NCBI GenBank assembly: GCA_902599315.1
Contig: CACKEY010000001.1
Coordinates: 173,328-237,327 of the forward strand
Direction of reading: 5' to 3'
Length of the DNA stretch: 64,000 bases
Origin: an uncultured SAR86 cluster bacterium
GTDB lineage: Bacteria > Pseudomonadota > Gammaproteobacteria > Magnimaribacterales > D2472
Position 1 is the first letter of the stretch. Each line of letters starts with the position of its first letter. The position numbers and the translations under genes are program-made. The notes under the pieces are model-generated. The model did no database searches and was not told the DNA's origin. It was given only the letters and a program-made list of their open reading frames with translations. Below, piece by piece: positions 2,442 through 23,277 of the stretch.

Positions 2442-2518
2442 TTTTTATATGCCTCCAGTAGAAAAGTTAGTCTAACAAAAACTAACAAGATATCTACAGC
2501 ATAACCATATGTATTTTC

Positions 2519-2527
2519 TGTGGATAA
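2519..2527 (-). promoter_or_regulatory. Perfect consensus DnaA box (TTATCCACA on the minus strand) in the dnaA-rpmH divergent intergenic region
   Basis: The plus strand reads TGTGGATAA at 2519-2527, about 80 nt upstream of the dnaA start. The position suits dnaA autoregulation or an origin element. Confidence 0.6.
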
Positions 2528-2618
2528 CTTGTTAGCATGTAATGTATCTAATTTTTGTTGTTTTTTCTTTCATTTCATACCCAATACTATATAATTTTTG
2601 GCTTAATTTTGAGTAACT

Positions 2619-2753
2619 ATGAAAAGAACATTTCAACCCAGCACACTGAAACGAAAAAGGGCTCATGGCTTTAGAGCGAGAATGGCAACCAAAGCAGGAA
2701 GGGCTGTAATTGCAAACCGAAGAAAAAAAGGTCGCAAGGTTTTAACCGCTTAA
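2619..2753 (+). CDS. rpmH: 50S ribosomal protein L34
   Basis: Hand-found 44-codon ORF, below the ORF-track cutoff: [44 protein letters not shown]. This is the near-universal L34 sequence, and rnpA follows it. Confidence 0.95.
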
Positions 2754-2847
2754 TTATTTAGGCTTCACTATTTCAAAAAAAATCTATCACTCAAACTTTG
2801 CATCAATTTTTTATGATGAAAGCTCGCCTAACGTAAAGCTTAGGATA

Positions 2848-3048
2848 GTGGTTAAAAAGAAAGACTATTCTTTGGCGGTACATCGGAATAAAATTAAGCG
2901 TTGGATTAGAGAAATTTTTCATCATAGTGGTCTCAATGGAGGATATGTTGTGGTTGTCAGATTTGGTTTTTTAGAAATGGGTTATAGAGATGTTTTTAAC
3001 GAATTTAATCCTGTCCTAGAAAAGTTTGCCAGTAAAAAGAGGGTTTAA
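2848..3048 (+). CDS. rnpA: RNase P protein component (the true start is probably upstream of the first canonical start codon)
   Basis: The RnpA RNR-motif region AVHRNKIKRWIREIF is present. The same frame is open back to 2746 and encodes more RnpA-like sequence (FTISKKIYHSNFASIFYDESSPNVKLRIVVKKK) with no ATG/GTG/TTG. GTG at 2848 is the first canonical start. Confidence 0.8.
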   Translation: MVKKKDYSLAVHRNKIKRWIREIFHHSGLNGGYVVVVRFGFLEMGYRDVFNEFNPVLEKFASKKRV

Positions 3049-3050
3049 AT

Positions 3051-3263
3051 TTGAAAAACTTTTTTATATCTATGATTAACTTTTATCAAAAATATTTAAG
3101 TTTTTTATTCGGCAAAAATTGTAGGTTTGAGCCAACATGTTCGCAATATGCAAAAGAAAGTATTGAGGCCCATGGTGTTATTGTTGGTGGTTTCAATTCT
3201 TTAATAAGGATTTTAAAATGTGGGCCATGGTCAGCTGGCGGTATTGATGAGGTAAAAAAATGA
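3051..3263 (+). CDS. yidD: Membrane protein insertion efficiency factor YidD
   Basis: 70-aa ORF with the YidD motif CRFEPTCSQYAKESIEAHG. It sits between rnpA and yidC and overlaps the yidC start by 4 nt. An alternative start is ATG at 3072. Confidence 0.85.
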   Translation: MKNFFISMINFYQKYLSFLFGKNCRFEPTCSQYAKESIEAHGVIVGGFNSLIRILKCGPWSAGGIDEVKK

Positions 3264-4831
3264 ATTGGAGATATTTTTATATAGCTTCGGTGGTTGCTTT
3301 ATCGTATGTTTTGTTTTTATCCTGGAATGCCGAAAAAGAAATCAAACAAGAGGTTGCAGAGGCAACCGCCATAGATATAAATAAAAGTCGGCAAGTTCTC
3401 CCCCCTGGAGAAACAGAAGATTTAATTGAAATACAAAACAGCAAATTAATTGTAAAGATAAGCCCTGTCACAGGAAAAATTTGGGAAGCAAGGCTTAAAG
3501 AACATACCTACCTTAACAACGATGACTCTCTGGGTGTAAGGTTGTTTGGTTTTGATAATGCCGCTGGATTTAAGTTTTATCTTAATAGTGGTTTTGCTTC
3601 TGAGGATCAAAGCTTTGAAACTGTAAATGTGCAACCCTCATCAGTTGAGCTTGCGTCTGCTGATGGCAAAATTAATAAAAATATTGCTCTTAAGGCCGAT
3701 GATTATGAGTTATTAATAAAGGATGTTTGGGTTGGAGATCTTCCTGTTGACCTGCCGGCTCCATACATTGCAATGTATAGAACAGGTGGAAGGGCGCTAG
3801 ATGCAAGGGATAATTTTTTTGAGAACAGCTCCTACACAGGGGTCGCTTTTAATACGCCTGATGAGCCGTATGCAAATAGTAGGCTTAGGTCTATTGACGA
3901 AAGAATAGAATATTTTCAACGGGGTGGCTGGGTTGCCTTTATACAAAAATATTTTATGGCGGCAATTTTAACCCCCTCAGACAGGGTCCAGGCATTGATT
4001 GCGCTTCCTCCGACCTCTGGCTCTGATACATATGTAATGGGGGCTATGTCTAGGGAGGTAAAAGCAAGCGATCTCATGTCTGGTGTAGATCATAGGGTTT
4101 TTATTGGGCCTAAAATTCGTTCTGATTTGATGAGTCGAGCGTCTGATTTAGAACTAACAATTGATATGGGTTGGTTTTGGTTTTTGGCTCAACCCCTGAT
4201 GATGCTGTTAAGCATGATCAATGCTTTTGTTGGTAACTGGGGTGTCTCAATTTTACTTTTGACAGTTTTGGTTAAGTTGCTGCTTTGGCCTATTTCCGCC
4301 AAGGGTTTTTCCAGTATGGCTAAAATGAGAACAGCGCAGCCGAAATTAAAAGAAATACAAGAGAGGTATAAAGACGATAGGACAAAGCTGGGGACAGAGA
4401 TGATGGCACTATATAAAAAAGAGGGCATAAACCCAGCCGGTGGTTGTTTTCCACTTTTTCTTCAAATGCCAGTTTTTATAGCTTTCTTTTTTTGTTTAAG
4501 AGAGAGTGTTGAGCTGAGACATGAATCATTCTTTTTTTGGATACAAGACTTGTCTGCGCCTGATCCATTTTTCATTCTTCCGGTTGTGTTTGCGGCCCTT
4601 ATGTATCTAACTCAACAACTTAACCCTCAGCCACCAGGTATGGATCCAACACAGGCACAAATTATGAAATTTATGCCGGTGATGATCGCCGTTATTTTTG
4701 TGATTATGCCGGCAGGTCTTGTTTTGTACTCTGTTGCAAACAGCGCGATATCTCTTGTTCAACAAAGAACGATGTATAAAAAATATGGCGCATCTGTTAA
4801 TGGGTCAGATGGATCTGGTGGTGGTGGTTAG
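3260..4831 (+). CDS. yidC: Membrane protein insertase YidC
   Basis: 523 aa with an N-terminal TM helix, a large periplasmic domain and the conserved C-terminal 60-kDa IMP core (WGVSILLLTVLVKLLLWPIS...GGCFPLFLQMPVFIAFF). Confidence 0.95.
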   Translation: MNWRYFYIASVVALSYVLFLSWNAEKEIKQEVAEATAIDINKSRQVLPPGETEDLIEIQNSKLIVKISPVTGKIWEARLKEHTYLNNDDSLGVRLFGFDNAAGFKFYLNSGFASEDQSFETVNVQPSSVELASADGKINKNIALKADDYELLIKDVWVGDLPVDLPAPYIAMYRTGGRALDARDNFFENSSYTGVAFNTPDEPYANSRLRSIDERIEYFQRGGWVAFIQKYFMAAILTPSDRVQALIALPPTSGSDTYVMGAMSREVKASDLMSGVDHRVFIGPKIRSDLMSRASDLELTIDMGWFWFLAQPLMMLLSMINAFVGNWGVSILLLTVLVKLLLWPISAKGFSSMAKMRTAQPKLKEIQERYKDDRTKLGTEMMALYKKEGINPAGGCFPLFLQMPVFIAFFFCLRESVELRHESFFFWIQDLSAPDPFFILPVVFAALMYLTQQLNPQPPGMDPTQAQIMKFMPVMIAVIFVIMPAGLVLYSVANSAISLVQQRTMYKKYGASVNGSDGSGGGG

Positions 4832-4842
4832 GGGTTTGTGTT

Positions 4843-6150
4843 TTGATTTTTGCATTAGCAACTCCCGTAGCTCAATCCGCAATTGCTGTGTTTCGAATAT
4901 CTGGTGAGGGTTGTTGTCAAAAATTTAATAGTGTTATTAATAAACCCATCTTAAATTTCCGGGAGGTTTTTTTAAGAGATGTTGTTTGGGAGGGGGTTTT
5001 GGTTGATAGGTGTTCTATTGTTTACTACTCAAGCCCAAGCAGTTATACAGGCGAAGACTCTATAGAGGTTTTTTGTCATGGCGGCCTCTCGGTTATAAAG
5101 TCATTAACTGAAGTTTTTTTATCATTGGGTTTTAGGGAGGCCAACCCTGGGGAATTTTCAAGGATTGCGTTTGAAAACGGTAAGCTTTCTTTAAATGAGG
5201 CTGAGGCTGTTGTTGATTTGATTAATTCAGAAGACGCCGAAAGAAGCCAGCTTTCCTCAGAGGCTGTGGCTGGCAAATTAAGTGATGTGGTTCAGGCGCT
5301 TGGTAAAGAGGTTGATGCCTTAAGGGTTTTTATTGAAGGAAGTATTGATTTTTCAGATGAAGATCATGATTTTATTGTCGCGGGAAACATTGAAGAAAGG
5401 CTGGTTAAAATAAAATTTTCTTTGGCTGATTTAATAGATAGCTCATTGGTTTCAAGTAAAAAACTATCAAAAAATAGGGTTTTGTTTTTTGGCCCCCCTA
5501 ATACAGGTAAATCATCTTTGTTTAATCGTATGCTTGGTTTTGACAGGGCTTTAGTTTCAAACATTCCTGGGACAACAAGAGATCTAATTGACTCTGAGGT
5601 TTTTTATAACAGTGTAAATATGGAGTTGGTAGATTCGGCGGGTGTTCGGGAAACGGATGATTTGATCGAGAGAAGCGGTGTTGCGCTTTCTGGTGATGAG
5701 GTTAAAAATTCTAATTTAATTCTTGTAATTTTAGATCATGATACAGAGGAGCTGTTACCAAGTTTTAAATCTAGGTTGTCTGATAAAAAACACCTGATTG
5801 TTTTTAACAAATCTGATAAGCAGCATCCAAAAAGTTGTTGTGACTGTGTTGTTTCTGCAAAGTCAGGTGATGGTGTGCGGGAGTTAAAAAAGAAAATTTT
5901 TGAATTTATACAAGAGGATAAAGATATTACAAAAAAAACATTTATTATCAGGGAACGACACCTTAAATGTTTTAGCTCAGCTTTATCAAGCCTAAATGCC
6001 TGTATTGAGAAAATTTCTAATGAGCGTGATATTGATGTTGCGGCAGAGGATTTGAGATTGGTGAGATCCTCCTTTGATGAATTTTTGGGTATCAAGCATT
6101 CTGATGATTTGCTTGGTGATATTTTTAAAGATTTCTGCATAGGGAAGTAG
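4843..6150 (+). CDS. mnmE: tRNA modification GTPase MnmE
   Basis: 435 aa with a TTG start, the G1 motif GPPNTGKSSLFN and the C-terminal CIGK motif. Confidence 0.95.
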   Translation: MIFALATPVAQSAIAVFRISGEGCCQKFNSVINKPILNFREVFLRDVVWEGVLVDRCSIVYYSSPSSYTGEDSIEVFCHGGLSVIKSLTEVFLSLGFREANPGEFSRIAFENGKLSLNEAEAVVDLINSEDAERSQLSSEAVAGKLSDVVQALGKEVDALRVFIEGSIDFSDEDHDFIVAGNIEERLVKIKFSLADLIDSSLVSSKKLSKNRVLFFGPPNTGKSSLFNRMLGFDRALVSNIPGTTRDLIDSEVFYNSVNMELVDSAGVRETDDLIERSGVALSGDEVKNSNLILVILDHDTEELLPSFKSRLSDKKHLIVFNKSDKQHPKSCCDCVVSAKSGDGVRELKKKIFEFIQEDKDITKKTFIIRERHLKCFSSALSSLNACIEKISNERDIDVAAEDLRLVRSSFDEFLGIKHSDDLLGDIFKDFCIGK

Positions 6151-6156
6151 ATAAAA

Positions 6157-6298
6157 TGTGGGTAATTTGTGATTAGTTTTTATTTTATTTTTATCCACAT
6201 CTTATTTAGTAGAAAACTACAATTTATGGTGATGGGTTTACATAACTTACTAGGTTCAGTTAGTCTTTTATATAAGGGGCTTATTAGTTTTATGCACA
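6157..6298. other. DnaA-box cluster and candidate oriC in the mnmE-mnmG intergenic region
   Basis: One perfect TTATCCACA at 6191-6199. Two one-mismatch boxes: TGTGGGTAA at 6157-6165 (opposite orientation) and TTATGCACA at 6290-6298. An AT-only tract at 6171-6190 lies just 5' of the perfect box. Confidence 0.45.
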
Positions 6299-6356
6299 AA
6301 AAAAACGCCTCTAACAATAACAACAATAATATATTGTTGTTATAACATTCTTATAT

Positions 6357-8174
6357 ATGTTTGATGTAATAGTAATAGGCGGTGGGCATGCTGGTGTTGA
6401 AGCGGCGCATGCTGTTTTTAGGCAGGGGCTTAAATGTTGTCTTGTCACCTTTAAAAAAGATGCTATTGGTCAGATGTCCTGCAATCCAGCTATAGGTGGT
6501 TTGGGAAAATCACATTTAGTTAGAGAGGTCGATGCCTTAGGGGGTATTATGGCGCAAGCTACAGACCAATCTGGCATTCAGTCGAGAACTCTAAATACAA
6601 GAAAGGGTTTTGCCGTACAAGCACTTCGAGTGCAATGCGACAGAGATAAATACAAAAAAGCAATTCAAGATGCTTTGTATAAGACAACCATTGATATTAA
6701 GGAAGGAGAGGTAGTTGACATTCTTCTTCACAATGAAACGATTAAAGGCGTTGTGTTGAAAAATGGCGAGAAAATAGAATCACTAAAGACCATTCTAACA
6801 ACAGGAACTTTTCTTAATGGGATCATGTATAAAGGCGAAGAGGTTACTCTAGGTGGGCGCGCCGGCGATGATTCATCTGTTCCGCTATCCAAAAAACTCT
6901 ATGATCTGAAACTACCGATGGGAAGGTTGAAAACAGGAACCCCCGCAAGAATCAAACTATCCAGTATTGATCTTAGTGTTATGGATGAACAACCGGGAGA
7001 TCCAAATCCGCCCTCTATGTCAGTTTTGCAACCCCCAGCAAAAACGCTCCCACAAATATCTTGCTATATCACCAGAACAAACAAAAAAACACATCAAATA
7101 ATTTCAAACAATACACACTTATCTGCCATGTATTCAGGAAAAATATCAGGAATAGGACCCCGATATTGCCCATCAATAGAAGATAAAATTAACAGGTTTA
7201 GCGAAAAAGATAGCCATCAAATATTTATAGAACCAGAAGGCCTAGATAAAGATTTAGTTTATCCAAATGGTATTTCAACAAGCTTGCCAAGCGCTGCTCA
7301 GAAAGATTTTGTAGAGTCAATAAATGGGCTTGAAAACTCAGAAATAGAAGAATTTGGTTATGCTGTTGAATATGATTTTATTGATCCAAGATCACTAAAC
7401 CCAACCTTAGAAACAAAGTTTATAGAGAGTTTTTATCTCGCAGGTCAAATTAATGGAACAACGGGTTATGAGGAGGCTGCGGCCCAGGGCTTAATTGCTG
7501 GTATAAACGCAGGCCAATCAATTTTAAAAAAACCTGAGGTCATATTCGACAGAAGCGAAGCATATATAGGTGTGTTAATAGACGACCTAACACTTAACGG
7601 AGTTACAGAACCATATAGAATGTTTACCAGCCGAGCAGAGTATCGACTCATGCTATCTCAAGATACAGCATGCCAAAGACTCACCAAAAAAGGCCGCTCT
7701 CTAGGTCTTATAAGTGATGAAGCTTTTCAATCCTTCATAGAGCTAGAAAATAAATATCAAGCATTTTTAAACCAAATAAAAAAACAAAAAGTTAACATAA
7801 ACGACAAACTAGCTTCGGGTGGCGACCTTCTAAAAAGAACCGACATTGATACAACAGAGTTAAAAAAAGTATTAAAGATTTCAAAAAAAGAAGAAAAGTT
7901 TTTCAACAGAGCATCAAACGAAATTAAATATAAGGGCTATATAGCAAAACAACAAAGAGAGGTAGAGGGCTCCAAAAAAAATGAAAAAACAAGAATACCG
8001 AAAGAAATAGATTATTCGCTTATAAAGGGTCTATCAAACGAAGTGATTGAAAAATTAAACAAACACAAACCAATATCTCTTGGGCAAGCTAGCAGGCTGG
8101 AGGGAATCACACCTGCAGCCATAAATCTACTTGCCATAACAATTAAAAAAAACCAATTACTAGAAAAGGCATAG
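6357..8174 (+). CDS. mnmG: tRNA uridine 5-carboxymethylaminomethyl modification enzyme MnmG (GidA)
   Basis: 605 aa with the N-terminal FAD-binding motif [14 protein letters not shown] and GidA-family length and sequence. Confidence 0.97.
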
Positions 8175-8256
8175 CTCAATCAAAAAACACGACCAACAAC
8201 ACAACCTCATAGAAATCTATGTAGAGGAAATACTAAAATTCAACAAAGCTCACAAT

Positions 8257-8763
8257 TTGGTTGGCCGACACACGAAAGAAGAAATCTATTCACAAGACAT
8301 CCTTGATTGTCAGATGGTTCTAAAACATATACCACCAGAAAAAAAAATACTTGATATTGGAAGCGGAGCCGGGCTCCCAGGCTTGCTTATAGCAATTCTG
8401 CAGCCCCGATCACACATAACAATGTCAGAAAAAAATCAAAAAAAAGCATATTTTATAAAAAAAACAATTCAAACGCTTGGGCTCTCTAACGCTAAAATCA
8501 AAAACAAAGCCATAAGGCCTAACACAACAACAAAAAAACTCTTTGATATTATTACAGCAAGAGCCCTAGCACCAACACCAAAAATAATTAACTGGTCAGA
8601 ACATTTGCTAGCAAAAAATGGTAAATACGTTCTTATGAAGGGAACAATAGAAAAAACAAAAGAAGAGGTTGCTCAGTTGGATAATAATACATACTCTTAC
8701 AATATCCATAAAACAAACATTAAAGACAAGCAGAGGCACATTTTAGAGATAACCAAAAAATGA
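8257..8763 (+). CDS. rsmG: 16S rRNA m7G527 methyltransferase RsmG (the true start is probably upstream)
   Basis: SAM motif ILDIGSGAGLPGL. The frame is open from 8164 and encodes RsmG-like N-terminal residues (HNLIEIYVEEILKFNKAHNL) before the first canonical start, TTG at 8257. Confidence 0.85.
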   Translation: MVGRHTKEEIYSQDILDCQMVLKHIPPEKKILDIGSGAGLPGLLIAILQPRSHITMSEKNQKKAYFIKKTIQTLGLSNAKIKNKAIRPNTTTKKLFDIITARALAPTPKIINWSEHLLAKNGKYVLMKGTIEKTKEEVAQLDNNTYSYNIHKTNIKDKQRHILEITKK

Positions 8764-9515
8764 AACACATTATCGCTATTGCCAATCAAAAAGGAGGAGT
8801 TGGAAAAACAACCACAGCAGTTAACCTTGCCGCAGCCCTCGCGGCGACTAAGCGCAAAGTTCTTTTAATTGACTTAGACCCCCAAGGAAATGCAAGCACA
8901 GCCGCGGGAGTGCCCAAAAATGAGAAAACCCTATATAAGATCTACTATGAAGACCTAAATATAGTAGAGCACATATCAAAGTCACCTAGTGGATATGACG
9001 TCATACCGGGGGGTGAGAATTTAATAGCGTTGGAGGTTTATATCAGAAGCGACAACAAACAAGGTGAACTAAAAAAACAATTAGACCCCCTAGAGTATGA
9101 GTTTATAATAATGGATACACCGCCGTCTTTAAATCAACTAACACTAGAGTCTCTTTTTGCCGCGACAGCGACACTTATACCCCTCCAATGTGAATATTAT
9201 TCCTTAGAAGGCATCTCATCTCTAATAAACACAATAAATATTCTCAAAAACAAAAACCTTACAAACAATAAGGTTTTTGGAATTGTCAGAACAATGGTTG
9301 ATATGAGAAACAATCTAGCAAAAGAGGTGTCTGAAGAGCTCGAAAAACATTTCCCATCCTTGGTTTTTAACACACTCATTCCAAGAAATGTTAAATTAGC
9401 AGAAGCGCCTAGCCATGGAACTTCGGCAATTCAATACATGCCGTCGTCATTTGGCGCAAAAGCTTATTTAGCTCTAGCTGGTGAACTTATCAGGAGAATT
9501 GAAGTTGGTGGATAA
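8760..9515 (+). CDS. parA: Chromosome partitioning ATPase ParA (Soj)
   Basis: 251 aa with the deviant Walker A motif NQKGGVGKTTTAVNLA. Its start overlaps the rsmG stop by 4 nt. Confidence 0.93.
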   Translation: MKHIIAIANQKGGVGKTTTAVNLAAALAATKRKVLLIDLDPQGNASTAAGVPKNEKTLYKIYYEDLNIVEHISKSPSGYDVIPGGENLIALEVYIRSDNKQGELKKQLDPLEYEFIIMDTPPSLNQLTLESLFAATATLIPLQCEYYSLEGISSLINTINILKNKNLTNNKVFGIVRTMVDMRNNLAKEVSEELEKHFPSLVFNTLIPRNVKLAEAPSHGTSAIQYMPSSFGAKAYLALAGELIRRIEVGG

Positions 9516-10347
9516 AATACTTAACACAGGCCTAGACGCATTATTGGGAAATGTTGCGTCTCCCAACAAACAAACCATCAAAGAAATAGAGCTATCTCAA
9601 ATTAAACCAAATCGATTTCAACCCAGGCAATCATTCGACAAGCAAAAAATCACAGAACTTTCACAATCAATTACAAAGCACGGCATTTTATCACCTATCC
9701 TTGTTAGGGAAACAGGAGCTGGAGGCTATGAGCTTATAGCTGGCGAAAGAAGATTAAGAGCAGCAAAAGAAGCTGGACTGCAAACTGCTCCATGTATGAT
9801 TGATTCGGCAGAGGATCAGCTTTCGCTTGAACTTGCCCTTATTGAAAACCTTCAAAGGGAAGACTTAAATCCAATTGAAGAGGCTAGGGGTTACGATCGT
9901 TTAAAAAAAGAGTTTTCTTTGACGCAAGATAAAATTGCAGAAGTTACAGGAAAGGCTAGAAGTTCTGTTGCTAATTCGATGAGGCTTTTAAACCTCCCAT
10001 CATCTATTATTGAGCTCTTGTACTCCGGGGACTTAGAAAAAGGACATGCAAAAATTCTTGCATCAATGGAGCCCAGCGAAGCAGAGGAGCTTGCACAAAA
10101 AATAGTTTCTTTAGGCATGACTGTAAAAGATGCTGCCTCGTCAACCAAAACTAAAAGTACAAAAAGCACCTCCAAAACAAAAAATAGAGATCTTTTAAAC
10201 ATAGAGGAGGAGCTATCTGAAAACATTGGCCACAAAACCCAAATTGATCAACAAACCTCATCAAAAGGAAAAATTTCTATTTCATACTCATCCAAGGATG
10301 AACGTGAAGCAATAATTAACAAATTATTAAAATTAAAGAAAAATTAA
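9481..10347 (+). CDS. parB: Chromosome partitioning protein ParB (Spo0J)
   Basis: ParB box GERRLRAAKEAG followed by an HTH region. The track start is GTG at 9481, which overlaps parA. Starts at TTG 9499, TTG 9505 or GTG 9508 follow GGAG at 9492-9495 and are at least as likely. Confidence 0.92.
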   Translation: MNLSGELKLVDKILNTGLDALLGNVASPNKQTIKEIELSQIKPNRFQPRQSFDKQKITELSQSITKHGILSPILVRETGAGGYELIAGERRLRAAKEAGLQTAPCMIDSAEDQLSLELALIENLQREDLNPIEEARGYDRLKKEFSLTQDKIAEVTGKARSSVANSMRLLNLPSSIIELLYSGDLEKGHAKILASMEPSEAEELAQKIVSLGMTVKDAASSTKTKSTKSTSKTKNRDLLNIEEELSENIGHKTQIDQQTSSKGKISISYSSKDEREAIINKLLKLKKN

Positions 10348-18498: not shown

Positions 18499-20325
18499 AT
18501 GTGTGGAATTATAGGGGCGGCATCATCTCGCAACGTAGGAAAGTTATTAGTTCAAGGCCTTCATAAGATGGAGTATCGTGGTTATGACTCAGCAGGTATA
18601 GCCCTCCATCAAAAAGACAGTATTTTTAATTTAAGAACTTTGGGAAAAGTAAGTTTGCTTGAAGATGGAATGATTGAGCATCGGCCAAAAAGCAAACTTG
18701 GAATTGCTCACACTCGCTGGGCAACTCACGGTCAACCTTCTAAAGAAAATGCACACCCACACGCATCAAGTGGAGAGGTTCACATTGTTCACAACGGAAT
18801 TATAGAAAATTACCTTGAGCTTACAGAAAAATTAAAAAAGGCTGGATATGCTTTCCAATCTGAAACTGACTCAGAGGTCATAGCACACTTACTTCATCAA
18901 CACATACAATCAAGCGGCGATTTGCTGTCCGCTATGCATGACGCTATAAAAGAGCTTGATGGCGCTTACGCCATAGCGGCCATTCATATTAAAAATAAAA
19001 ACAGATTAGTCGTTGCAAGAAACAAAAGCCCATTATTGATTGGGCTAGGCCTAGAGGAAAATTTTGCTGCTTCGGACCCCTTAGCTTTATCACAACTTAC
19101 TAATAAGTTTGTATTTCTTGAAGATGGTGATGTTGCAGAAATAACCAAGCAAAGTTATCAAGTTTTCGACGGAAAGAGTTCCCCTGTTAAAAGAGATGTA
19201 ACTGAAATAGACATAGCAGTTAATTCGGCTACTAAAGGAGAATATTCTCACTTTATGGAGAAAGAAATATATGAACAGCCTGATGCTGTTGCCAATACCA
19301 TAAATGGGAAACTTGGAGATGAGGACGTATTAGATAATATATTTGGTTTAGGCTCATCAGAGCTTTTTAGTAAGATTAAAAGAATTCAGTTTGTTGCATG
19401 TGGAACAAGCTTACATGCAGGCAAAGTAGGAAGGTTTTGGTTTGAGCGAATAGCTAAAATTCCATGTTATGTAGATTTTGCGAGTGAGTATAGATATAGA
19501 GAGCCTCTTGTAGAAGAGGGCACATTGTTTGTTACCATTTCACAATCCGGAGAAACCGCAGATACTTTGGCTGCCCTCAAATACGCAAAAGAAAAAGACT
19601 ATTTAAGCACATTGTCAATCTGCAACGTTCCAACCAGTTCGTTGGCTAGAGAATCAGAGCATGTTCTTTTTACTAATGCTGGCCCAGAAATTGGCGTTGC
19701 ATCAACAAAGGCATTTACTACTCAGCTGGCAGGTTTGATGCTGTTAGCCATGTCTATTGCAAAAAGCTTAAATCAAGATAAAGAATTAAGAAAAAAATTG
19801 GCTAGTGAACTAAGAAATTTGCCAAAGGTGATCGATAAGACATTGAAACTATCAAATGAGATCATGAAGATCGTTCCTAATATTGCTGATAAACACAATG
19901 CTTTATTCTTAGGAAGGGGCATGTTTTTTCCAATCGTTCAAGAAGGCGCACTGAAATTGAAAGAAATTTCATACATTCACGCTGAGGCTTACCCAGCAGG
20001 AGAGTTAAAACATGGGCCACTGGCATTGGTCGACGATCAAATTCCAGTGGTGGCATTATCCCCTGAAAATACTTTAACTGAAAAACTAGTCTCCAACCTG
20101 GAGGAGGTAAAGGCAAGGGGCGGCACGCTTTATGTATTTGGTGGAGAAAATTCAAAAATTAAAATCGAAAGAGGTGAATACATTCAAATGCCAGAATGTA
20201 GCGAATTGTTAGCTCCAATTATTTATACCATTCCACTTCAAATTCTTGCATATCAAGTTGCATGCCAAAGAGGCACTGATTTAGATCAACCTAGGAACTT
20301 AGCTAAGTCAGTTACGGTGGAATGA
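18499..20325 (+). CDS. glmS: Glutamine-fructose-6-phosphate aminotransferase GlmS
   Basis: The start is set at ATG 18499 (MCGIIGA, Ntn catalytic Cys2), 1 nt after the glmU stop. The track ORF from 18421 is an upstream extension. The protein has two SIS domains and the universal C-terminus NLAKSVTVE. Confidence 0.97.
   Translation: MCGIIGAASSRNVGKLLVQGLHKMEYRGYDSAGIALHQKDSIFNLRTLGKVSLLEDGMIEHRPKSKLGIAHTRWATHGQPSKENAHPHASSGEVHIVHNGIIENYLELTEKLKKAGYAFQSETDSEVIAHLLHQHIQSSGDLLSAMHDAIKELDGAYAIAAIHIKNKNRLVVARNKSPLLIGLGLEENFAASDPLALSQLTNKFVFLEDGDVAEITKQSYQVFDGKSSPVKRDVTEIDIAVNSATKGEYSHFMEKEIYEQPDAVANTINGKLGDEDVLDNIFGLGSSELFSKIKRIQFVACGTSLHAGKVGRFWFERIAKIPCYVDFASEYRYREPLVEEGTLFVTISQSGETADTLAALKYAKEKDYLSTLSICNVPTSSLARESEHVLFTNAGPEIGVASTKAFTTQLAGLMLLAMSIAKSLNQDKELRKKLASELRNLPKVIDKTLKLSNEIMKIVPNIADKHNALFLGRGMFFPIVQEGALKLKEISYIHAEAYPAGELKHGPLALVDDQIPVVALSPENTLTEKLVSNLEEVKARGGTLYVFGGENSKIKIERGEYIQMPECSELLAPIIYTIPLQILAYQVACQRGTDLDQPRNLAKSVTVE
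20299..20325 (+). repeat. Reference copy of the repeat: the genuine last 27 nt of glmS
   Basis: TTAGCTAAGTCAGTTACGGTGGAATGA encodes L-A-K-S-V-T-V-E-stop. Confidence 0.9.
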
Positions 20326-20355
20326 GTTTGAACAGAGAATTATTAGAATAAAATT

Positions 20356-20742
20356 ATGAAAAAAATAGTTTTTTCTATATTCGCAATTCTATTCATCAAT
20401 GTTGTTAATGCAAAAACCTTGGTTCTAGAATGCAGTCAAATAACTTCAGGATTCTCTCTAAAATCAGAAGTAATAATTAATACGAACACAGGGTTTATTT
20501 CTATGCATGGTTGGATAGTAAAAGATGAATTTGCCTATTCTGAAGAAAGTGGAGAGATAGAAGCATGGGGCATCATTAAAGAGTATGGAAATGACTCTGA
20601 TTTTCGTCATATTAAATACCTTGAAAAGGAAAAAATTCTTGCCTGGTCTGACTCATTTTTTAGACCTCGAGGAGTATTCGGAGATAATCCTCCGCATAAA
20701 TATGTATCCTCAGGTAATTTCCAAATTTTGAAATGCCAATAA
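20356..20742 (+). CDS. Hypothetical secreted protein (cassette unit 1)
   Basis: 128-aa ORF with an N-terminal signal peptide (MKKIVFSIFAILFINVVNA). I recognise no family. Confidence 0.65.
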   Translation: MKKIVFSIFAILFINVVNAKTLVLECSQITSGFSLKSEVIINTNTGFISMHGWIVKDEFAYSEESGEIEAWGIIKEYGNDSDFRHIKYLEKEKILAWSDSFFRPRGVFGDNPPHKYVSSGNFQILKCQ

Positions 20743-20840
20743 AATATCTCTTTCTATTCTGCATATTTTCCATAATTTGCAGTGCAGGGAAAAGATTTTT
20801 ACCATATGAGAAACGATGGATAAAAAATCAAATCACTGTT

Positions 20841-20867
20841 TTGTTCAAGTCAGTGACGGTAGAGTAG
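20841..20867 (+). repeat. glmS 3'-end repeat, copy 1
   Basis: TTGTTCAAGTCAGTGACGGTAGAGTAG would read L-F-K-S-V-T-V-E-stop. It matches the genuine end at 18 of 27 positions by hand count. Confidence 0.75.
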
Positions 20868-20899
20868 ATTTGGAAAATGATTTATATAGGAGATACTAA

Positions 20900-21169
20900 A
20901 TGTTAATAGCAGTAAGAGCAGAAGTTGAGAGCGTTGATCACTGGAGAGAAAAATTTAAGACTCACGATGATTTATTTAAAAGTCAGGGCGTCTCTCTTGC
21001 ACATATGGGAACAGCAAATGATAAAACAGTAATTGCTGTTTTTGAAACAAACGATGTTGATAAGTTTGTAAGAATATTTAATGATCCTTTAACTGCAGAG
21101 GCAATGTCAGAGGATAAAATAACAGGCGGTGTTGAGATGTTTATTCTAGACGAGACCTTTGAATTATAA
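20900..21169 (+). CDS. Hypothetical small soluble protein (cassette unit 2)
   Basis: 89-aa ORF with an AGGAG Shine-Dalgarno 8 nt upstream. I recognise no family with confidence. Confidence 0.6.
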   Translation: MLIAVRAEVESVDHWREKFKTHDDLFKSQGVSLAHMGTANDKTVIAVFETNDVDKFVRIFNDPLTAEAMSEDKITGGVEMFILDETFEL

Positions 21170-21183
21170 AAAACAGGTTGAGT

Positions 21184-21210
21184 TTATTTCAATCAGTCAC
21201 GGTGGAGTAG
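21184..21210 (+). repeat. glmS 3'-end repeat, copy 2
   Basis: TTATTTCAATCAGTCACGGTGGAGTAG would read L-F-Q-S-V-T-V-E-stop and matches the genuine end at 19 of 27 positions. It also shares AACAGAGAAT at the same +6 offset after the stop (21216-21225 versus 20331-20340). Confidence 0.8.
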
Positions 21211-21242
21211 AACAAAACAGAGAATAAAAAGATTGAAGTAAT

Positions 21243-21521
21243 ATGAAAAAGTTTATTGGAATATTCCTGACTTCTGCATTTATATTTGCAGTTTTATTAT
21301 CTGAGTATGATAGTTATTATGGTTCTTGGTTATTTTATGCGCTGGGAATGATGATGGTTGCCCTAGGATATATTTATAAGGGTGAGGAAAATTCAACAAG
21401 TTGTTTTTGGGTTGGTTTATTCATAATGCTGATAACTTTTGTGGGCGCAAATGTTTCAGGAAAAATTTCTATCGAGACTATAGAAATCTTACGTGAGACT
21501 TTGGAAAACATAGAAGAATAG
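21243..21521 (+). CDS. Small membrane protein, paralog of 23991-24251 (cassette unit 3)
   Basis: 92 aa with about three TM helices. It aligns with the 86-aa ORF at 23991 through shared Y-x-D-x-Y, LY-x-LG, G-L-x-I-x-x-ITF-x-G and SG-x-I positions. Confidence 0.65.
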   Translation: MKKFIGIFLTSAFIFAVLLSEYDSYYGSWLFYALGMMMVALGYIYKGEENSTSCFWVGLFIMLITFVGANVSGKISIETIEILRETLENIEE

Positions 21522-21541
21522 TAAGAGTGATTTTTAAAATT

Positions 21542-22657
21542 TTAAATTACTTCCGCAAGAGAATTTAAACAATACTCAATATTCTTTTTATTGGAAGATT
21601 GTCCCATAAGTCCAATGCGCCAAACTTTTCCCGCAAGAACTCCAAGACCAGCTCCAATTTCGAGATTAAATTCGTTTAACAGTCTTTGTCTTGATTCAAG
21701 ATCATTTACACCATCAGGAATATAGATAGCATTTAATTGAGGCAATCTGTCCTCTTCTTTTACTAAAAATTCAATATTTAATTTTTCTAAGCCCTCTCGG
21801 AGTTGAAGATGGTTCTCTTTATGTCTTTTCCATGAATTTTCTAGGCCTTCTTCACTTAACATTATCAAGGCTTCATGAAGTCCATATAATGAATTTATTG
21901 GTGCAGTATGATGATAAGATCGGCCTGCTTCTCCTTCCCAATATGACATGATTAAGTTTAAATCATGAAACCAACTCTTCACTTTTGATTTTCTATTCTT
22001 AATCTTTTCTTTTGCAGCTTTACTAAAACTAATTGGCGATAAACCAGGAGAAGCGGACAAACACTTTTGTGTACCAGAATAAATTGCGTCAATTCCCCAT
22101 TCATCTACTTTTAAAGGAACTCCAGCCAAACCAGTTACAGTATCTACAATTGATAAACATCCGTGGTCATGTGCTAATTTTGTAATTGATTCTGGATCTG
22201 TAAGAGCCCCGGTAGAGGTTTCAGCATGAACTGAAGCAACAATTTTTGCATCCTTATGTTCATTTAAGGCTGATTCAATTTTATTTAAGTCTACTTTTGT
22301 TCCCCATTCATCATCAATAACTATTGGTATTCCACCAAATCGCTCAACATTCTCTTTCATTCTTTCTCCAAAGAACCCATTTTTAGCAATAATTACCTTG
22401 TCATCAGGCTCAACAAGATTCGCAAAGCAAGATTCCATACCTGCCATACCAGGTGCTGATAAGGCAAAAGTTAACTCATTCTGTGTTTGAAATGCATATT
22501 GAAGTAACTGTTTTGTTTCATCCATCATTGTTATAAAAATAGGATCAAGATGACCAATAGTTGGTCTAGCCATAGCCTCCAAAACTCTATCGCAAACGTC
22601 AGATGGACCTGGACCCATTAAAATCCTATTTGGCGGTGTGAATGAATTTATTTTCAT
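21542..22657 (-). CDS. Class V aminotransferase (alanine-glyoxylate / serine-pyruvate aminotransferase family)
   Basis: 371 aa with the N-terminal LMGPGPS motif and the PLP-lysine region SGTQKCLSASPG typical of the AGXT/SPT family. Confidence 0.85.
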   Translation of the reverse strand: MKINSFTPPNRILMGPGPSDVCDRVLEAMARPTIGHLDPIFITMMDETKQLLQYAFQTQNELTFALSAPGMAGMESCFANLVEPDDKVIIAKNGFFGERMKENVERFGGIPIVIDDEWGTKVDLNKIESALNEHKDAKIVASVHAETSTGALTDPESITKLAHDHGCLSIVDTVTGLAGVPLKVDEWGIDAIYSGTQKCLSASPGLSPISFSKAAKEKIKNRKSKVKSWFHDLNLIMSYWEGEAGRSYHHTAPINSLYGLHEALIMLSEEGLENSWKRHKENHLQLREGLEKLNIEFLVKEEDRLPQLNAIYIPDGVNDLESRQRLLNEFNLEIGAGLGVLAGKVWRIGLMGQSSNKKNIEYCLNSLAEVI

Positions 22658-22766
22658 GGCGATATGATACTAGATAAACACTTTTCTTTTGAAAAAATGG
22701 ATAGGAAAAAGTCTAAAAAAAAGTACTTAAGTATAATGGGCATAGGGTTTAATAAAGGTAGATAGT

Positions 22767-22793
22767 TTAATCTATACAGTGACGGCGGAGTAG
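22767..22793 (+). repeat. glmS 3'-end repeat, copy 3 (most decayed)
   Basis: TTAATCTATACAGTGACGGCGGAGTAG would read L-I-Y-T-V-T-A-E-stop and matches the genuine end at 16 of 27 positions. Its 17-nt core matches copies 1 and 2 at 15 of 17 positions. Confidence 0.7.
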
Positions 22794-22826
22794 AAAGATA
22801 AAATTAGCTTTTTTAGGGCTTAAATA

Positions 22827-23117
22827 ATGGAAATAAATTGGGTGATTATAGGTTGGCTAATCGACATGACTCTTAATGGTTTTGTGTGGCTTATCATTGC
22901 AGCATTTTCTTTGTTAATAATTGATGTGACTGACAAATGGACAAGAAAAGCTGTTAAGTTGATGGGTAAAGCTGATGATTGGATAAGAAAATTTATAGAA
23001 GACGACTTATTTGAATTTATTCAAAAGAAGAACCTTAAAATGCTTACTAGCATTATTTTGTTAATTATCTTTGGTATTCTGGCTCAACTAGGAATAATAC
23101 CGAAGCTTATAACTTAA
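22827..23117 (+). CDS. Hypothetical membrane protein
   Basis: 96-aa ORF with two hydrophobic helices. It starts 33 nt after repeat copy 3. Confidence 0.55.
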   Translation: MEINWVIIGWLIDMTLNGFVWLIIAAFSLLIIDVTDKWTRKAVKLMGKADDWIRKFIEDDLFEFIQKKNLKMLTSIILLIIFGILAQLGIIPKLIT

Positions 23118-23277
23118 TATATTAAGATAATGAAAGTAATTTCAAATTTAATCCGTTAGCGGGCGATAAACTTAGTAAAAAAACACGGATTACTTTTAAA
23201 ATAAAATTAAATCACCATATAAATTCTATAGTTGCAAAGTTGTTTCGTTTGCAGAATAAATTTTAGGAGTATCAAAT

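What the first reader, a model, noticed from the sequence alone, without database searches (positions are those of the whole stretch)
20299..22793. Three displaced copies of the glmS 3' terminus partition the DNA downstream of glmS into tiny cassette-like units
The last 27 nt of glmS are 20299-20325, TTAGCTAAGTCAGTTACGGTGGAATGA, encoding LAKSVTVE-stop. They recur three times in the same orientation within the next 2.5 kb.
- 20841-20867: TTGTTCAAGTCAGTGACGGTAGAGTAG
- 21184-21210: TTATTTCAATCAGTCACGGTGGAGTAG
- 22767-22793: TTAATCTATACAGTGACGGCGGAGTAG

By hand count these match the live end at 18, 19 and 16 of 27 positions. Their 17-nt cores (CAGTNACGGNNGAGTAG) match one another at 15 of 17. Copy 2 also shares AACAGAGAAT at exactly +6 after the stop with the live locus, and copy 1 shares 12 of 20 positions after the stop. 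The repeat unit therefore spans the stop codon and is roughly 45 nt.

A GC-rich motif recurring unidirectionally, and as far as I could see only next to its parent gene, in an AT-rich sequence is unlikely to be chance. Displaced copies of a target gene's 3' end are the classic scar of site-specific integration into that end. Known examples are tRNA/tmRNA islands and tandem SCC elements at rlmH. Each newcomer supplies a replacement end and pushes the old one downstream.

glmS is well known as the Tn7 attachment locus. Tn7, however, inserts after the stop without duplicating the gene end, and no tns genes or Tn7-type ends are present here.

The delimited units are only 542, 343 and 1583 bp (1, 1 and 2 genes). 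No integrase lies in the 64 kb. This looks like either a cassette array serviced by a recombinase in trans or the eroded trace of serial integrations. I do not know of a described glmS-3'-end cassette system.
Basis: partly seen in the sequence, partly recalled or inferred. Interest (0 to 1): 0.8.

Follow-up and report, generated by a model that had tools for sequence, protein, structure and literature searches.

The report
Gene-cassette array anchored in glmS end
The three copies of the glmS gene end are real and mark a swappable array of small gene cassettes found downstream of glmS throughout this order of tiny marine bacteria, working much like an integron but with no recombinase gene of its own in sight.

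Summary
The 17-nt core occurs three times in the window (0 of 100 shuffles reach this). In the 1.44-Mb genome it occurs nowhere else except the live glmS end. A fourth, decayed copy lies at 23152-23169.

It is not a local oddity. All 51 related loci read across four families, and most of the 266 genomes of the order (probably SAR86), carry same-strand arrays of these copies behind glmS. They separate 83 bp-6 kb units, mostly one promoterless ORF on the glmS strand, with very diverse cargo.

Copies vary almost only at third codon positions of S-V-T-V-E-stop. Most cassettes with well-kept ends carry their own covarying inverted arms abutting the core. A circularised cassette would therefore hold a ~50-bp palindrome.

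The same cassette sits directly behind live glmS or behind and before many different neighbours in metagenomes. Homology breaks exactly at the core. Linkage maps the exchange to the invariant AC of the Thr codon, the palindrome's centre.

Among the recombinase families searched, the genomes encode only XerC and XerD as a rule. The dif site looks nothing like this site.

Best reading: an integron-like, site-specific cassette array served in trans by an unidentified enzyme. No description was found in the literature searched.

The parts
18499..20325 (+). glmS (609 codons with stop), ending LAKSVTVE-TGA. It anchors the array.
   Evidence: Translation. It was used to find glmS in 110 of 139 family genomes. 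The upstream genes are dnaN, dnaA, yidC, mnmE, mnmG, rsmG, parA, parB, the atp operon and glmU.
20308..20325 (+). Live core TCAGTTACGGTGGAATGA (S-V-T-V-E-stop). It plays the attB-like role. The inferred exchange point is the AC at 20314-20315.
   Evidence: The exchange point comes from linkage in 223 junctions.
20326..20867 (+). Cassette 1 (542 bp). ORF 20356-20742, 128 aa, signal-peptide-like N-terminus by eye, no Pfam family. Start arm about 20320-20345, end arm about 20825-20849, partly complementary.
   Evidence: arm duplex -10.0 kcal/mol. One metagenome contig joins 20342 to 20851, skipping it.
20850..20867 (+). Displaced core copy 1, TCAGTGACGGTAGAGTAG.
20868..21210 (+). Cassette 2 (343 bp). 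ORF 20900-21169, 89 aa, no Pfam family. Its arms are weak in this genome.
   Evidence: The identical protein lies on 7 metagenome contigs. It sits directly behind a live glmS end (L080), behind at least 3 other upstream cassettes, and before 3 different downstream cassettes. Joint 20841>21191 has a net skip of 343 bp and appears in three runs of three studies.
21193..21210 (+). Displaced core copy 2, TCAGTCACGGTGGAGTAG.
21211..22793 (+). Unit 3 (1583 bp), composite. ORF 21243-21521 (92 aa, + strand, membrane-like by eye) plus a class-V aminotransferase at 21542-22657 on the minus strand. The start and end arms do not match each other.
   Evidence: Aminotran_5, 1.5e-25; arm duplex -5.1 kcal/mol. 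A metagenome variant replaces 21210-21539 with 38 nt that begin ATTTTAAACAGTGATT. L080 shows the same alternative.
22776..22793 (+). Displaced core copy 3, ACAGTGACGGCGGAGTAG.
22794..23169 (+). Cassette 4 (376 bp). ORF 22827-23117, 96 aa, membrane-like by eye, no Pfam family.
   Evidence: The identical protein lies on 21 metagenome contigs with several different downstream contexts.
23152..23169 (+). Decayed fourth core TCCGTTAGCGGGCGATAA. It marks the distal end of the array in this genome.
   Evidence: Intact at the homologous place in L086 (TCCGTTACTGCGGAATAA) and L089 (CCCATTACGGTGGAATAG), where a further cassette follows. A loose end at 23158 in run X6 agrees.

Best explanation
The DNA behind glmS is a site-specific gene-cassette array.

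**Anatomy.** Each cassette consists of a start arm, usually one promoterless ORF on the glmS strand, an end arm that is the inverted complement of the start arm, and a copy of the last 18 nt of glmS.

**Shown.**
- Cassettes are discrete units that occur in many orders and neighbourhoods.
- Junctions always lie in the core.
- The left part of each core (to position -13, counting back from the first base after the stop) travels with the upstream cassette. The right part (from -10) travels with the downstream cassette.
- The exchange therefore happens at the invariant A(-12) C(-11) of the Thr codon. This is also the centre of symmetry of the arms.

**Inferred.**
- A cassette moves as a circle. 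Its joined ends form a palindrome of about 50 bp: two arms of about 21 bp around an asymmetric centre of about 10 nt, GTNACNGT plus one variable base on each side.
- A recombinase exchanges strands at the AC between this site and any core, most consequentially the live glmS end.
- The incoming cassette then supplies codons from the Thr wobble base through Val-Glu-stop. GlmS stays intact and the old end is pushed downstream.
- The need to be able to finish GlmS, or recognition that reads only the invariant bases, keeps codon positions 1 and 2 of every copy conserved.

**The enzyme.** It acts in trans and is not identified. It is not encoded in or beside the arrays. In these genomes the only recognisable site-specific recombinases are XerC and XerD. 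A sharp central crossover at a non-palindromic dinucleotide flanked by freely varying bases fits two chemistries better than a classical tyrosine integrase with a 6-8 bp overlap that must be identical in both partners. One is a serine-recombinase-like 2-bp exchange. The other is a single-strand cut-and-join on a folded hairpin.
For: **Restricted to the locus and non-random.**

**Arrays in every relative read.**
- 96 forward against 9 reverse hits in 20 same-genus loci.
- 80 against 1 in 20 loci of nine other genera.
- The same architecture in the other three families of the order and in two genomes outside it.
- Clustered same-strand hits in 205 of 266 genomes and 22 of 22 genera, with controls near zero.

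**Codon-like conservation.** Under an unweighted search there are 124 forward and 7 reverse sites. Mismatches number 254 at the five wobble positions against 78 at eleven others (p = 2e-64).

**Cassette-specific inverted arms.**
- Duplex energy of a cassette's own two ends is -10.6 against -6.0 kcal/mol for mismatched pairs (p = 2e-13). Junction pairs equal the control.
- In 37 further cassettes it is -17.2 against -8.7 kcal/mol.
- In fixed register, Watson-Crick pairing is 0.55-0.69 against 0.31-0.50 in shuffles, with 3-4 pair types per position.
- Reconstituted junctions fold into 20-31 bp stems.

**Mobility.**
- 123 cassettes fall into 99 DNA clusters. The same families occur in different genera and at different array positions.
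- The identical 89-aa cassette lies behind live glmS or behind several other cassettes, with homology breaking at the core.
- One cassette end has about 17-20 different right neighbours on 30 metagenome contigs.
- Repeat-bounded joints occur in contigs from three studies.

**Crossover at AC.**

**Cassette anatomy.** 182 of 220 ORFs lie on the glmS strand. 53 of 99 cassettes hold a single ORF, with gaps of about 30 nt on each side. There are no intergenic terminator-like sites and no excess of promoter-like sites.

**No cis recombinase.**
Against: - No enzyme is identified.
- No circular junction was found. There were 0 hits for one cassette in JGI metagenome contigs. One ambiguous 'goes back' contig is the only hint.
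- In the window itself only cassette 1 has convincing arms. Units 2-4 may be old and fixed.
- Arms that differ between cassettes are unusual for protein-recognised sites. Their role, whether folding, cruciform or RNA, is inferred.
- Related genomes are not independent. The p-values overstate the number of independent events.
- The genome is 89.8% complete, so a recombinase gene could sit in the missing part. Against this, closed genomes of the order with arrays also have only two tyrosine recombinases and no resolvase-family gene. Only six recombinase or transposase families were searched, so absence holds for these families alone.
Confidence: 0.72

Rival explanations
1. Scars of serial integration (accretion) by larger integrase-bearing elements that target the glmS 3' end. 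These would be phages, satellites or tycheposon/CIME/SCC-like islands. Their integrase modules were later deleted, leaving cargo between att repeats.
For: Duplication of a target gene's 3' end is the classical signature of such elements (established knowledge; tycheposon preprint 10.1101/2020.12.28.424599). Some viral contigs of other taxa abut glmS. One (L101) holds a truncated AKSVTVE copy. A trans-acting, non-resident enzyme would explain why the genomes lack one.
Against: - None of the 51 arrays read holds a recombinase or phage gene among the listed Pfam matches.
- No tyrosine or serine recombinase lies near glmS in the genomes whose places were listed. Nearly all 266 genomes have only XerC and XerD.
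- Units are mostly 0.2-2 kb with one ORF.
- Most well-kept cassettes have their own matched inverted arms. Deletion remnants would not keep these.
- Cores are not eroding at non-wobble positions.
- Scans of viral contigs found no matching attP.
Confidence: 0.12
2. Miniature inverted-repeat transposons (MITE-like or casposon-like) mobilised by a transposase in trans. They would insert into the glmS end and duplicate the target, so that the 'cores' are target-site duplications.
For: Terminal inverted repeats that directly abut direct repeats are the textbook transposon anatomy. Casposons likewise target gene 3' ends with long duplications (own knowledge).
Against: - The two cores flanking one cassette are no more alike than random pairs. 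The central 8-mer is identical in 12% against 8% expected, and no wobble position is enriched.
- The left half of a core is linked to the upstream cassette and the right half to the downstream one. This is what reciprocal exchange gives, not duplication.
- The genome has no rve, IS110, Y1 or TniQ genes.
Confidence: 0.05
3. No dedicated enzyme. Arrays are shuffled between cells by uptake of DNA and homologous or short-homology recombination. The conserved glmS gene would serve as one anchor and the 18-nt cores as micro-homology. The arms would serve RNA processing or stability of a read-through transcript, not DNA recombination.
For: glmS is 70-99% identical across the order and would be a good anchor. 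No recombinase was found. The inverted arms bracket each cassette as the processing stalks of rRNA genes do (own knowledge). There are no terminators between cassettes.
Against: - Exchange is concentrated between -13 and -10 and not spread over the core or the flanks.
- It does not explain how each new gene acquired a core and matched arms.
- Stem mismatches show no G-T excess on the transcribed strand: 14 top-strand, 26 bottom-strand, 68 transversions.
- No Rfam family matches.
Confidence: 0.08
4. Host XerC/XerD perform the exchange, as they do for IMEX elements and pdif modules.
For: They are the only site-specific recombinases present in essentially all array-bearing genomes. Xer enzymes are known to act on folded single-stranded substrates, for example CTX phage (own knowledge).
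Against: The genome has a canonical dif, AGTTCGCATAATATATATTATGTTAAAT, at G000:C5:87075. The glmS core and inner arms show no likeness to either Xer arm. G502 has a cassette but no strong XerC/XerD-type match.
Confidence: 0.1

Closest known systems
Integrons (sedentary chromosomal integrons; CALIN clusters of attC sites lacking an integrase)
   Same: - An array of many small, mostly single-ORF, promoterless cassettes, co-oriented behind one fixed site.
- Each cassette carries an imperfect palindromic site whose sequence varies while its symmetry is kept.
- Very diverse cargo, mostly of unknown function.
- The same cassettes occur in different orders in different genomes.
   Different: - There is no intI anywhere in the genomes.
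- The attachment site is the coding 3' end of an essential gene, not an attI beside intI.
- The crossover is at the centre of the palindrome. Its two arms are therefore split to the two ends of the integrated cassette. In attC the crossover lies at the R' box and the site stays contiguous.
- A conserved 18-nt core mimics S-V-T-V-E-stop.
Tandem accretion of integrative elements at a gene's 3' end (tycheposons at tRNA genes in Prochlorococcus, CIME/ICE accretion, SCC elements at rlmH)
   Same: There are repeated partial copies of the target gene's end. The newcomer supplies a replacement end and pushes older units downstream. This too is in a streamlined marine bacterium with few other mobile elements.
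   Different: Those elements are kilobases long and carry, or recently carried, their own recombinase. Here the units are 0.1-2 kb, none has a recombinase, and each has matched inverted arms.
Tn7 and Tn7-like elements at attTn7 (glmS)
   Same: The same gene end is exploited, because its sequence is conserved and insertion behind it is harmless.
   Different: Tn7 recognises the glmS end with TnsD but inserts about 25 bp downstream, with a 5-bp duplication and no copy of the gene end. No TniQ/TnsD or rve transposase is present.
Xer-dependent modules (IMEX elements, pdif modules of Acinetobacter plasmids)
   Same: Small gene modules without a recombinase gene of their own, moved by enzymes encoded elsewhere in the cell.
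   Different: Those modules are bounded by dif-like 28-bp sites. The site here is unlike the genome's own dif.
att sites of serine recombinases
   Same: An imperfect palindrome of about 40-50 bp with exchange at a central, non-palindromic dinucleotide. The bases next to it need not match between the partners.
   Different: Serine-recombinase arms are sequence-specific and constant. Here they differ between cassettes. A resolvase-family gene is found in only 5 of 76 near-complete genomes of the order, and never near glmS.

Membership tests
Integron | An intI tyrosine recombinase gene adjacent to the array. | tested here: not met
   The only PF00589 matches in the genome are XerD (TIGR02225, 357 bits) and XerC (333 bits), 54 kb away or on another contig. 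The same holds across the genus and nearly all of the order.
Integron | attC sites: a contiguous imperfect palindrome at the 3' end of each cassette, with crossover in the R' box (G/TT). | tested here: not met
   The palindrome is split between the cassette's two ends, and exchange maps to its centre, the AC of GTNACNGT. An attC covariance model (IntegronFinder) was not available.
Integron | An array of compact, co-oriented, mostly promoterless single-gene cassettes with variable content. | tested here: met
   182 of 220 ORFs lie on the glmS strand. 53 of 99 cassettes hold a single ORF, with flanks of about 30 nt. There are 99 DNA clusters among 123 cassettes. Promoter-like sites show no excess.
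Tn7-like transposon at attTn7 | TnsD/TniQ target selector and a TnsB (rve) transposase, with insertion downstream of glmS and a 5-bp duplication. | tested here: not met
   PF06527 and PF00665 are absent from the genome. Junctions lie inside the last codons, and the gene end is copied.
Integrative element accretion (tycheposon / CIME / SCC type) | Direct repeats of the target gene's 3' end bound each unit. | tested here: met
Integrative element accretion (tycheposon / CIME / SCC type) | At least some units carry the cognate integrase or recombinase. | tested here: not met
   No recombinase family appears among the listed Pfam matches of 118 representative cassette ORFs (only the top 25 families per set are shown). 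No integrase or resolvase lies near glmS in the genomes whose places were listed.
Xer-dependent element (IMEX / pdif module) | Bounded by dif-like XerC/XerD binding sites. | tested here: not met
   The canonical dif lies at G000:C5:87075. By eye, it shows no likeness to the core or the inner arms.
TIR transposon / MITE / casposon | A target-site duplication, identical on both flanks of an element. | tested here: not met
   Flanking cores are no more alike than random pairs.
Serine-recombinase att site | Exchange at a central dinucleotide of an imperfect palindrome. | tested here: inconclusive
   The exchange lies between -13 and -10, that is at A-12 C-11, the symmetry centre. Linkage cannot tell a 2-bp staggered cut from a single-strand nick.
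Serine-recombinase att site | A serine recombinase is encoded. | tested here: not met
   PF00239 is absent from the genome and present in only 5 of 76 near-complete genomes of the order.

The most novel reading that the evidence does not exclude
This is a previously undescribed cassette-capture platform, a functional analogue of the integron. It is conserved across a whole order of very abundant, genome-streamlined marine bacteria. Its docking site is the last codons of the essential glmS gene, next to the replication origin. Its cassettes carry split palindromic arms. Its recombinase belongs either to an unrecognised family or is a housekeeping enzyme used in a new way.
Probability: 0.4. Interest if true: 0.92.

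Novelty: new variant of a known kind. Interest (0 to 1): 0.85.

Why it matters
**What it would explain.** The order with these arrays is probably SAR86 (Magnimaribacterales), one of the most abundant bacterial groups of the surface ocean. Its genomes are about 1-1.7 Mb and almost free of recognisable mobile elements. How such cells exchange genes is therefore an open question.

A universal docking site would be a main route of gene flux and micro-diversity for the group. It would accept single genes from a large shared pool without disturbing an essential gene. The cargo seen here includes restriction-modification parts, metal regulators, small membrane and secreted proteins, and many unknowns.

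**Mechanistic interest.**
- The system appears to work without any cognate recombinase gene in the array or, among the families searched, in the genome.
- Its site combines a coding-sequence mimic with structure-like, sequence-free arms.
- Identifying the enzyme could reveal a new recombinase, or a new use of a known one. It could also give a compact tool for insertion at glmS, a site already prized for Tn7-based engineering.

**Testability.** A cultured SAR86 isolate with a closed genome now exists (10.1101/2024.03.17.584874), so the model can be tested directly.

Tried and rejected
**Searches that gave nothing useful**
- My first family-wide pattern used the wrong Ser codon (ACN) and found only noise.
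- Viral contigs scanned with the cassette-type site gave 10 hits, all an unrelated phage coding repeat.
- Viral contigs scanned with the last 7 glmS codons plus the stop gave 42 hits. Nearly all were full glmS ends of other taxa beside prophages, or viral glmS genes. One truncated copy (L101) was found, and none were SAR86-like.
- A metagenome scan for the circular or tandem junction of the widespread ATAGAACTGTCC cassette gave 0 hits.
- A look-up of the exact GlmS protein found no record.
- Rfam gave no match at E <= 1 across the array.

**Enzyme searches**
- In the window's own genome, resolvase, Y1 transposase, IS110, rve and TniQ were all absent.
- 'Third' integrases in G063, G126, G129, G112, G001 and G502 are far from glmS.
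- Two large serine recombinases, in G101 and G112, are not near glmS.

**Tests that were negative or inconclusive**
- The RNA-stem idea was tested by mismatch type. There was no G-T excess on the transcribed strand, which is inconclusive.
- The idea of a hairpin across array junctions failed. Junction pairs are no more stable than random pairs.
- The target-site-duplication idea was rejected.

**Contig evidence treated with caution**
- Depth differences between cassettes were seen in laid contigs. They are not used as evidence, as the tool advises.
- The 'goes back 327' joint rests on one contig with unknown letters between its two sides. It more likely shows the 89-aa gene behind a different start arm than a circle.

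**Literature**
- Seven full-text searches ran: SAR86 with glmS; with genomic island and hypervariable; with gene cassettes; with flexible genomic islands; glmS with gene cassettes, inverted repeats and marine; tycheposon; and Magnimaribacter. None found a description of this array.
- The name of the organism could not be obtained from the tools.

Full report
**1. The observation**

The window carries dnaN, dnaA, yidC, mnmE, mnmG, rsmG, parA, parB, the atp operon, glmU and glmS. glmS ends at 20325 with LAKSVTVE-TGA.

Every number it gave is right: 18, 19 and 16 of 27; 15 of 17; 12 of 20; units of 542, 343 and 1583 bp.

The 17-nt core occurs three times in the window, against 0.08 expected, and 0 of 100 shuffles reach three. 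In the whole 1.44-Mb assembly (17 contigs, 89.8% complete) a looser pattern finds only the live end and these three copies on the forward strand. It also finds one 1-mismatch hit elsewhere. Each copy still reads S/T-V-T-V/A-E-stop.

A fourth copy at 23152-23169 is decayed in this genome. It is intact at the same place in metagenome contigs that carry the identical 96-aa gene.

**2. The arrays are general**

I located glmS in 110 of 139 species genomes of the family and read the DNA behind it.

- In 20 loci of the same genus there were 96 forward and 9 reverse matches.
- In 20 loci from nine other genera there were 80 and 1.
- Ten more loci from the other three families of the order, and from two genomes outside it, look the same.
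- A strict pattern gives clustered, same-strand hits in 205 of 266 genomes and 22 of 22 genera of the order. The reversed-pattern control stays near zero.
- Among 397 other Gammaproteobacteria sampled, nearly all have one hit, the live end. Only G583 (1.1 Mb) and G502 (1.9 Mb, closed) show small arrays with the same anatomy. One of the 397 sampled genomes, G302, is flagged as unpublished. No specific claim rests on it.

The order has four families, genomes of 0.6-1.8 Mb and low GC, and the window's DNA is held by marine metagenomes. This fits SAR86/Magnimaribacterales as described in 10.1101/2024.03.17.584874. The tools never gave the name, so this is an inference.

**3. Anatomy of a unit**

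Positions are counted from the first base after the stop, which is 0.

Across 125 displaced copies the conserved bases are A-20, T-18, C-17, GT, AC, GT, GA and TA. These are the first two positions of each codon.

I then searched with equal weight on all 18 positions, allowing up to 5 mismatches. This gave 124 forward and 7 reverse sites. Mismatches fell 254 times on the five wobble positions and 78 times on the eleven others (p = 2e-64).

Directly after the stop, each cassette begins with about 15-25 nt. These are the reverse complement of the stretch of about 15-25 nt that ends just before the next core.

- These arms differ between cassettes, and the two arms of one cassette change together.
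- Duplex energy of a cassette's own two ends is -10.6 against -6.0 kcal/mol for mismatched ends (p = 2e-13). The end of one cassette and the start of the next pair no better than chance.
- In an independent set the values are -17.2 against -8.7 kcal/mol.
- In fixed register about the -12/-11 axis, pairs from (-23, 0) to (-37, +14) are Watson-Crick in 0.55-0.69 of 99 non-redundant cassettes. Shuffles give 0.31-0.50, and each position shows 3-4 pair types.
- The innermost pairs (C-17:G-6, T-18:A-5, A-20:T-3) are constant.

Joined head to tail, a cassette would thus carry a palindrome of about 50 bp around an asymmetric centre of about 10 nt (GTNACNGT plus one base each side). Such junctions fold into 20-31 bp stems.

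Cassettes range from 83 bp to 6.4 kb, and most are 0.2-2 kb. Of 99 non-redundant cassettes, 53 hold one ORF, with about 30 nt before it and about 34 nt after it. 182 of 220 ORFs lie on the glmS strand. The window's array shows no intergenic terminator-like site and no excess of promoter-like sites.

The 220 ORFs fall into 145 protein clusters. Their Pfam matches are scattered accessory functions. They include sulfotransferase, HNH and Mrr nucleases, DNA methylases, reductases, methyltransferases, CsoR- and TetR-type regulators and beta-lactamase-fold proteins. None is a recombinase or transposase among the listed matches.

In the window itself only cassette 1 has clearly matching arms. Unit 3 is composite: a 92-aa ORF plus a reverse-strand class-V aminotransferase.

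**4. Cassettes are mobile units and the exchange point is mapped**

The 123 cassettes form 99 DNA clusters. Shared families turn up in different genera, families and array positions.

The identical 89-aa protein of window cassette 2 lies on seven metagenome contigs.
- In one it follows a live glmS end directly.
- In others it follows at least three different cassettes.
- It is followed by three different cassettes.
- In every case similarity starts or stops at the core.

One common cassette end plus core was found on 30 metagenome contigs, with about 17-20 different sequences after the stop.

Contigs from marine metagenomes of three studies join 20841 to 21191. The net skip is 343 bp, the length of cassette 2. 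Others skip cassette 1, or replace 21210-21539.

In 223 distinct junctions, I compared pairs that share the upstream cassette but not the downstream one.
- They agree at -19, -16 and -13 (0.77, 0.74, 0.63; background 0.30, 0.46, 0.27).
- They do not agree beyond background at -10 and later positions.

Pairs that share only the downstream cassette agree at -10, -7, -4 and -1 (0.71, 0.69, 0.91, 0.92; background 0.41, 0.54, 0.64, 0.53), but not at -13 and earlier (first pass).

The exchange therefore lies at the invariant A-12 C-11, which is the symmetry centre of the arms. The two cores flanking one cassette are no more alike than random pairs. The cores are therefore not target-site duplications.

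**5. The enzyme is missing**

- The genome has two tyrosine recombinases, XerD and XerC by NCBIfam.
- It has a canonical dif on another contig that looks nothing like the core.
- It has no resolvase, Y1 transposase, IS110, rve or TniQ match.
- Every genome of the genus, and nearly every genome of the order, has exactly two PF00589 matches or fewer. This includes the closed genomes G069, G145, G244 and G254.
- Extra integrases, where present, are far from glmS.
- Resolvase-family genes occur in 5 of 76 near-complete genomes, none near glmS.
- Two scans of viral contigs found no matching attP.

**6. Interpretation**

Shown:
- a locus-restricted, order-wide array of discrete cassettes;
- reciprocal-type exchange at one dinucleotide inside a mimic of the glmS end;
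- cassette-specific inverted arms;
- shuffling in present-day populations.

Inferred:
- a circular intermediate;
- folding or cruciform formation of the palindrome;
- a trans-acting recombinase.

A sharp central exchange flanked by freely varying bases argues against a classical integrase with a 6-8 bp identical overlap. It fits a 2-bp serine-type exchange, or a single-strand cut-and-join on a hairpin whose loop carries the conserved bases.

The rivals are integrase-element scars, TIR transposons with duplications, enzyme-free short-homology exchange with RNA-level arms, and Xer. Each conflicts with at least one test. None is fully excluded.

**7. Comparison and novelty**

The system works like an integron but fails its defining tests. 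There is no intI, the attachment site lies in a coding end, the palindrome is split and the crossover is central. It also fails the tests for Tn7, Xer modules, integrase-borne accretion and TSD transposons.

Seven full-text searches found no description of it. These covered the recent SAR86 isolate and comparative-genomics papers. The library does not cover all journals, so prior description cannot be ruled out.

Noticed in passing
window 54-10347: The window starts with dnaN and dnaA on the minus strand. Then come yidC, mnmE, mnmG, rsmG, parA and parB, and cumulative GC skew rises from about 2-3 kb. The glmS array therefore lies only about 18 kb from dnaA and the likely replication origin, co-oriented with replication. 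This gives high gene dosage and early replication.
   Followed up: partly
G000:C5:87075-87102 (own genome, outside the window): A canonical 28-bp dif site, AGTTCGCATAATATATATTATGTTAAAT, with 2 mismatches to the E. coli dif. It places the terminus on contig 5.
   Followed up: partly
G633 (loci L060, L063, L065-L069): A 2.6-Mb gammaproteobacterium outside the order carries 134 copies of a palindromic repeat. The long stems covary between copies. The constant loop, TCTGTCACCGTAGAGTGA, resembles that genome's own glmS end (GCTGTTACCGTAGAGTAG, 14 of 18). No transposase is adjacent. This may be a dispersed relative of the cassette site, or coincidence.
   Followed up: partly
L073, L074, L077, L078 (genome contigs): The 89-aa protein of window cassette 2 has 63-84% identical homologues in MAGs labelled Pseudomonadales, SAR92, Gammaproteobacteria and Henriciella, with no core nearby. 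The gene therefore also exists outside arrays. In L075 (GC 0.49, labelled Vicinamibacteraceae) it sits directly behind a glmS end and before a displaced core.
   Followed up: partly
window 20733-20867: A 44-aa ORF runs through the end arm of cassette 1 into core copy 1 and ends ...LFKSVTVE-stop. This is a by-product of the core keeping the glmS reading frame and is probably not a gene.
   Followed up: no
window 21210-21540: In some metagenome contigs the segment with the 92-aa ORF is replaced by 38 nt beginning ATTTTAAACAGTGATT. There the aminotransferase unit has its own start arm. The 92-aa segment lacks a core at its 3' side, so unit 3 is a fusion or an insertion without a core.
   Followed up: partly
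L102, L116, L126 (viral contigs): Three viral contigs begin or end a few dozen bases inside a glmS end. They share the same sequence right after the stop (ATTTCGTAATATAAAATGTGAGGATGTTGATTACGG). This may be an element of another taxon inserted just behind glmS.
   Followed up: no
L101 (viral contigs), 767-790: A truncated AKSVTVE-stop copy preceded by stop codons, in a GC 0.47 viral contig. This is a displaced glmS end in an unrelated organism, as expected for a phage or island that integrates into the glmS 3' end.
   Followed up: no
G502 (closed 1.9-Mb genome outside the order): It has one cassette with matched arms behind glmS. Its best PF00589 matches are weak (E 5e-21 and worse), so it may lack canonical XerC/XerD.
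   Followed up: no
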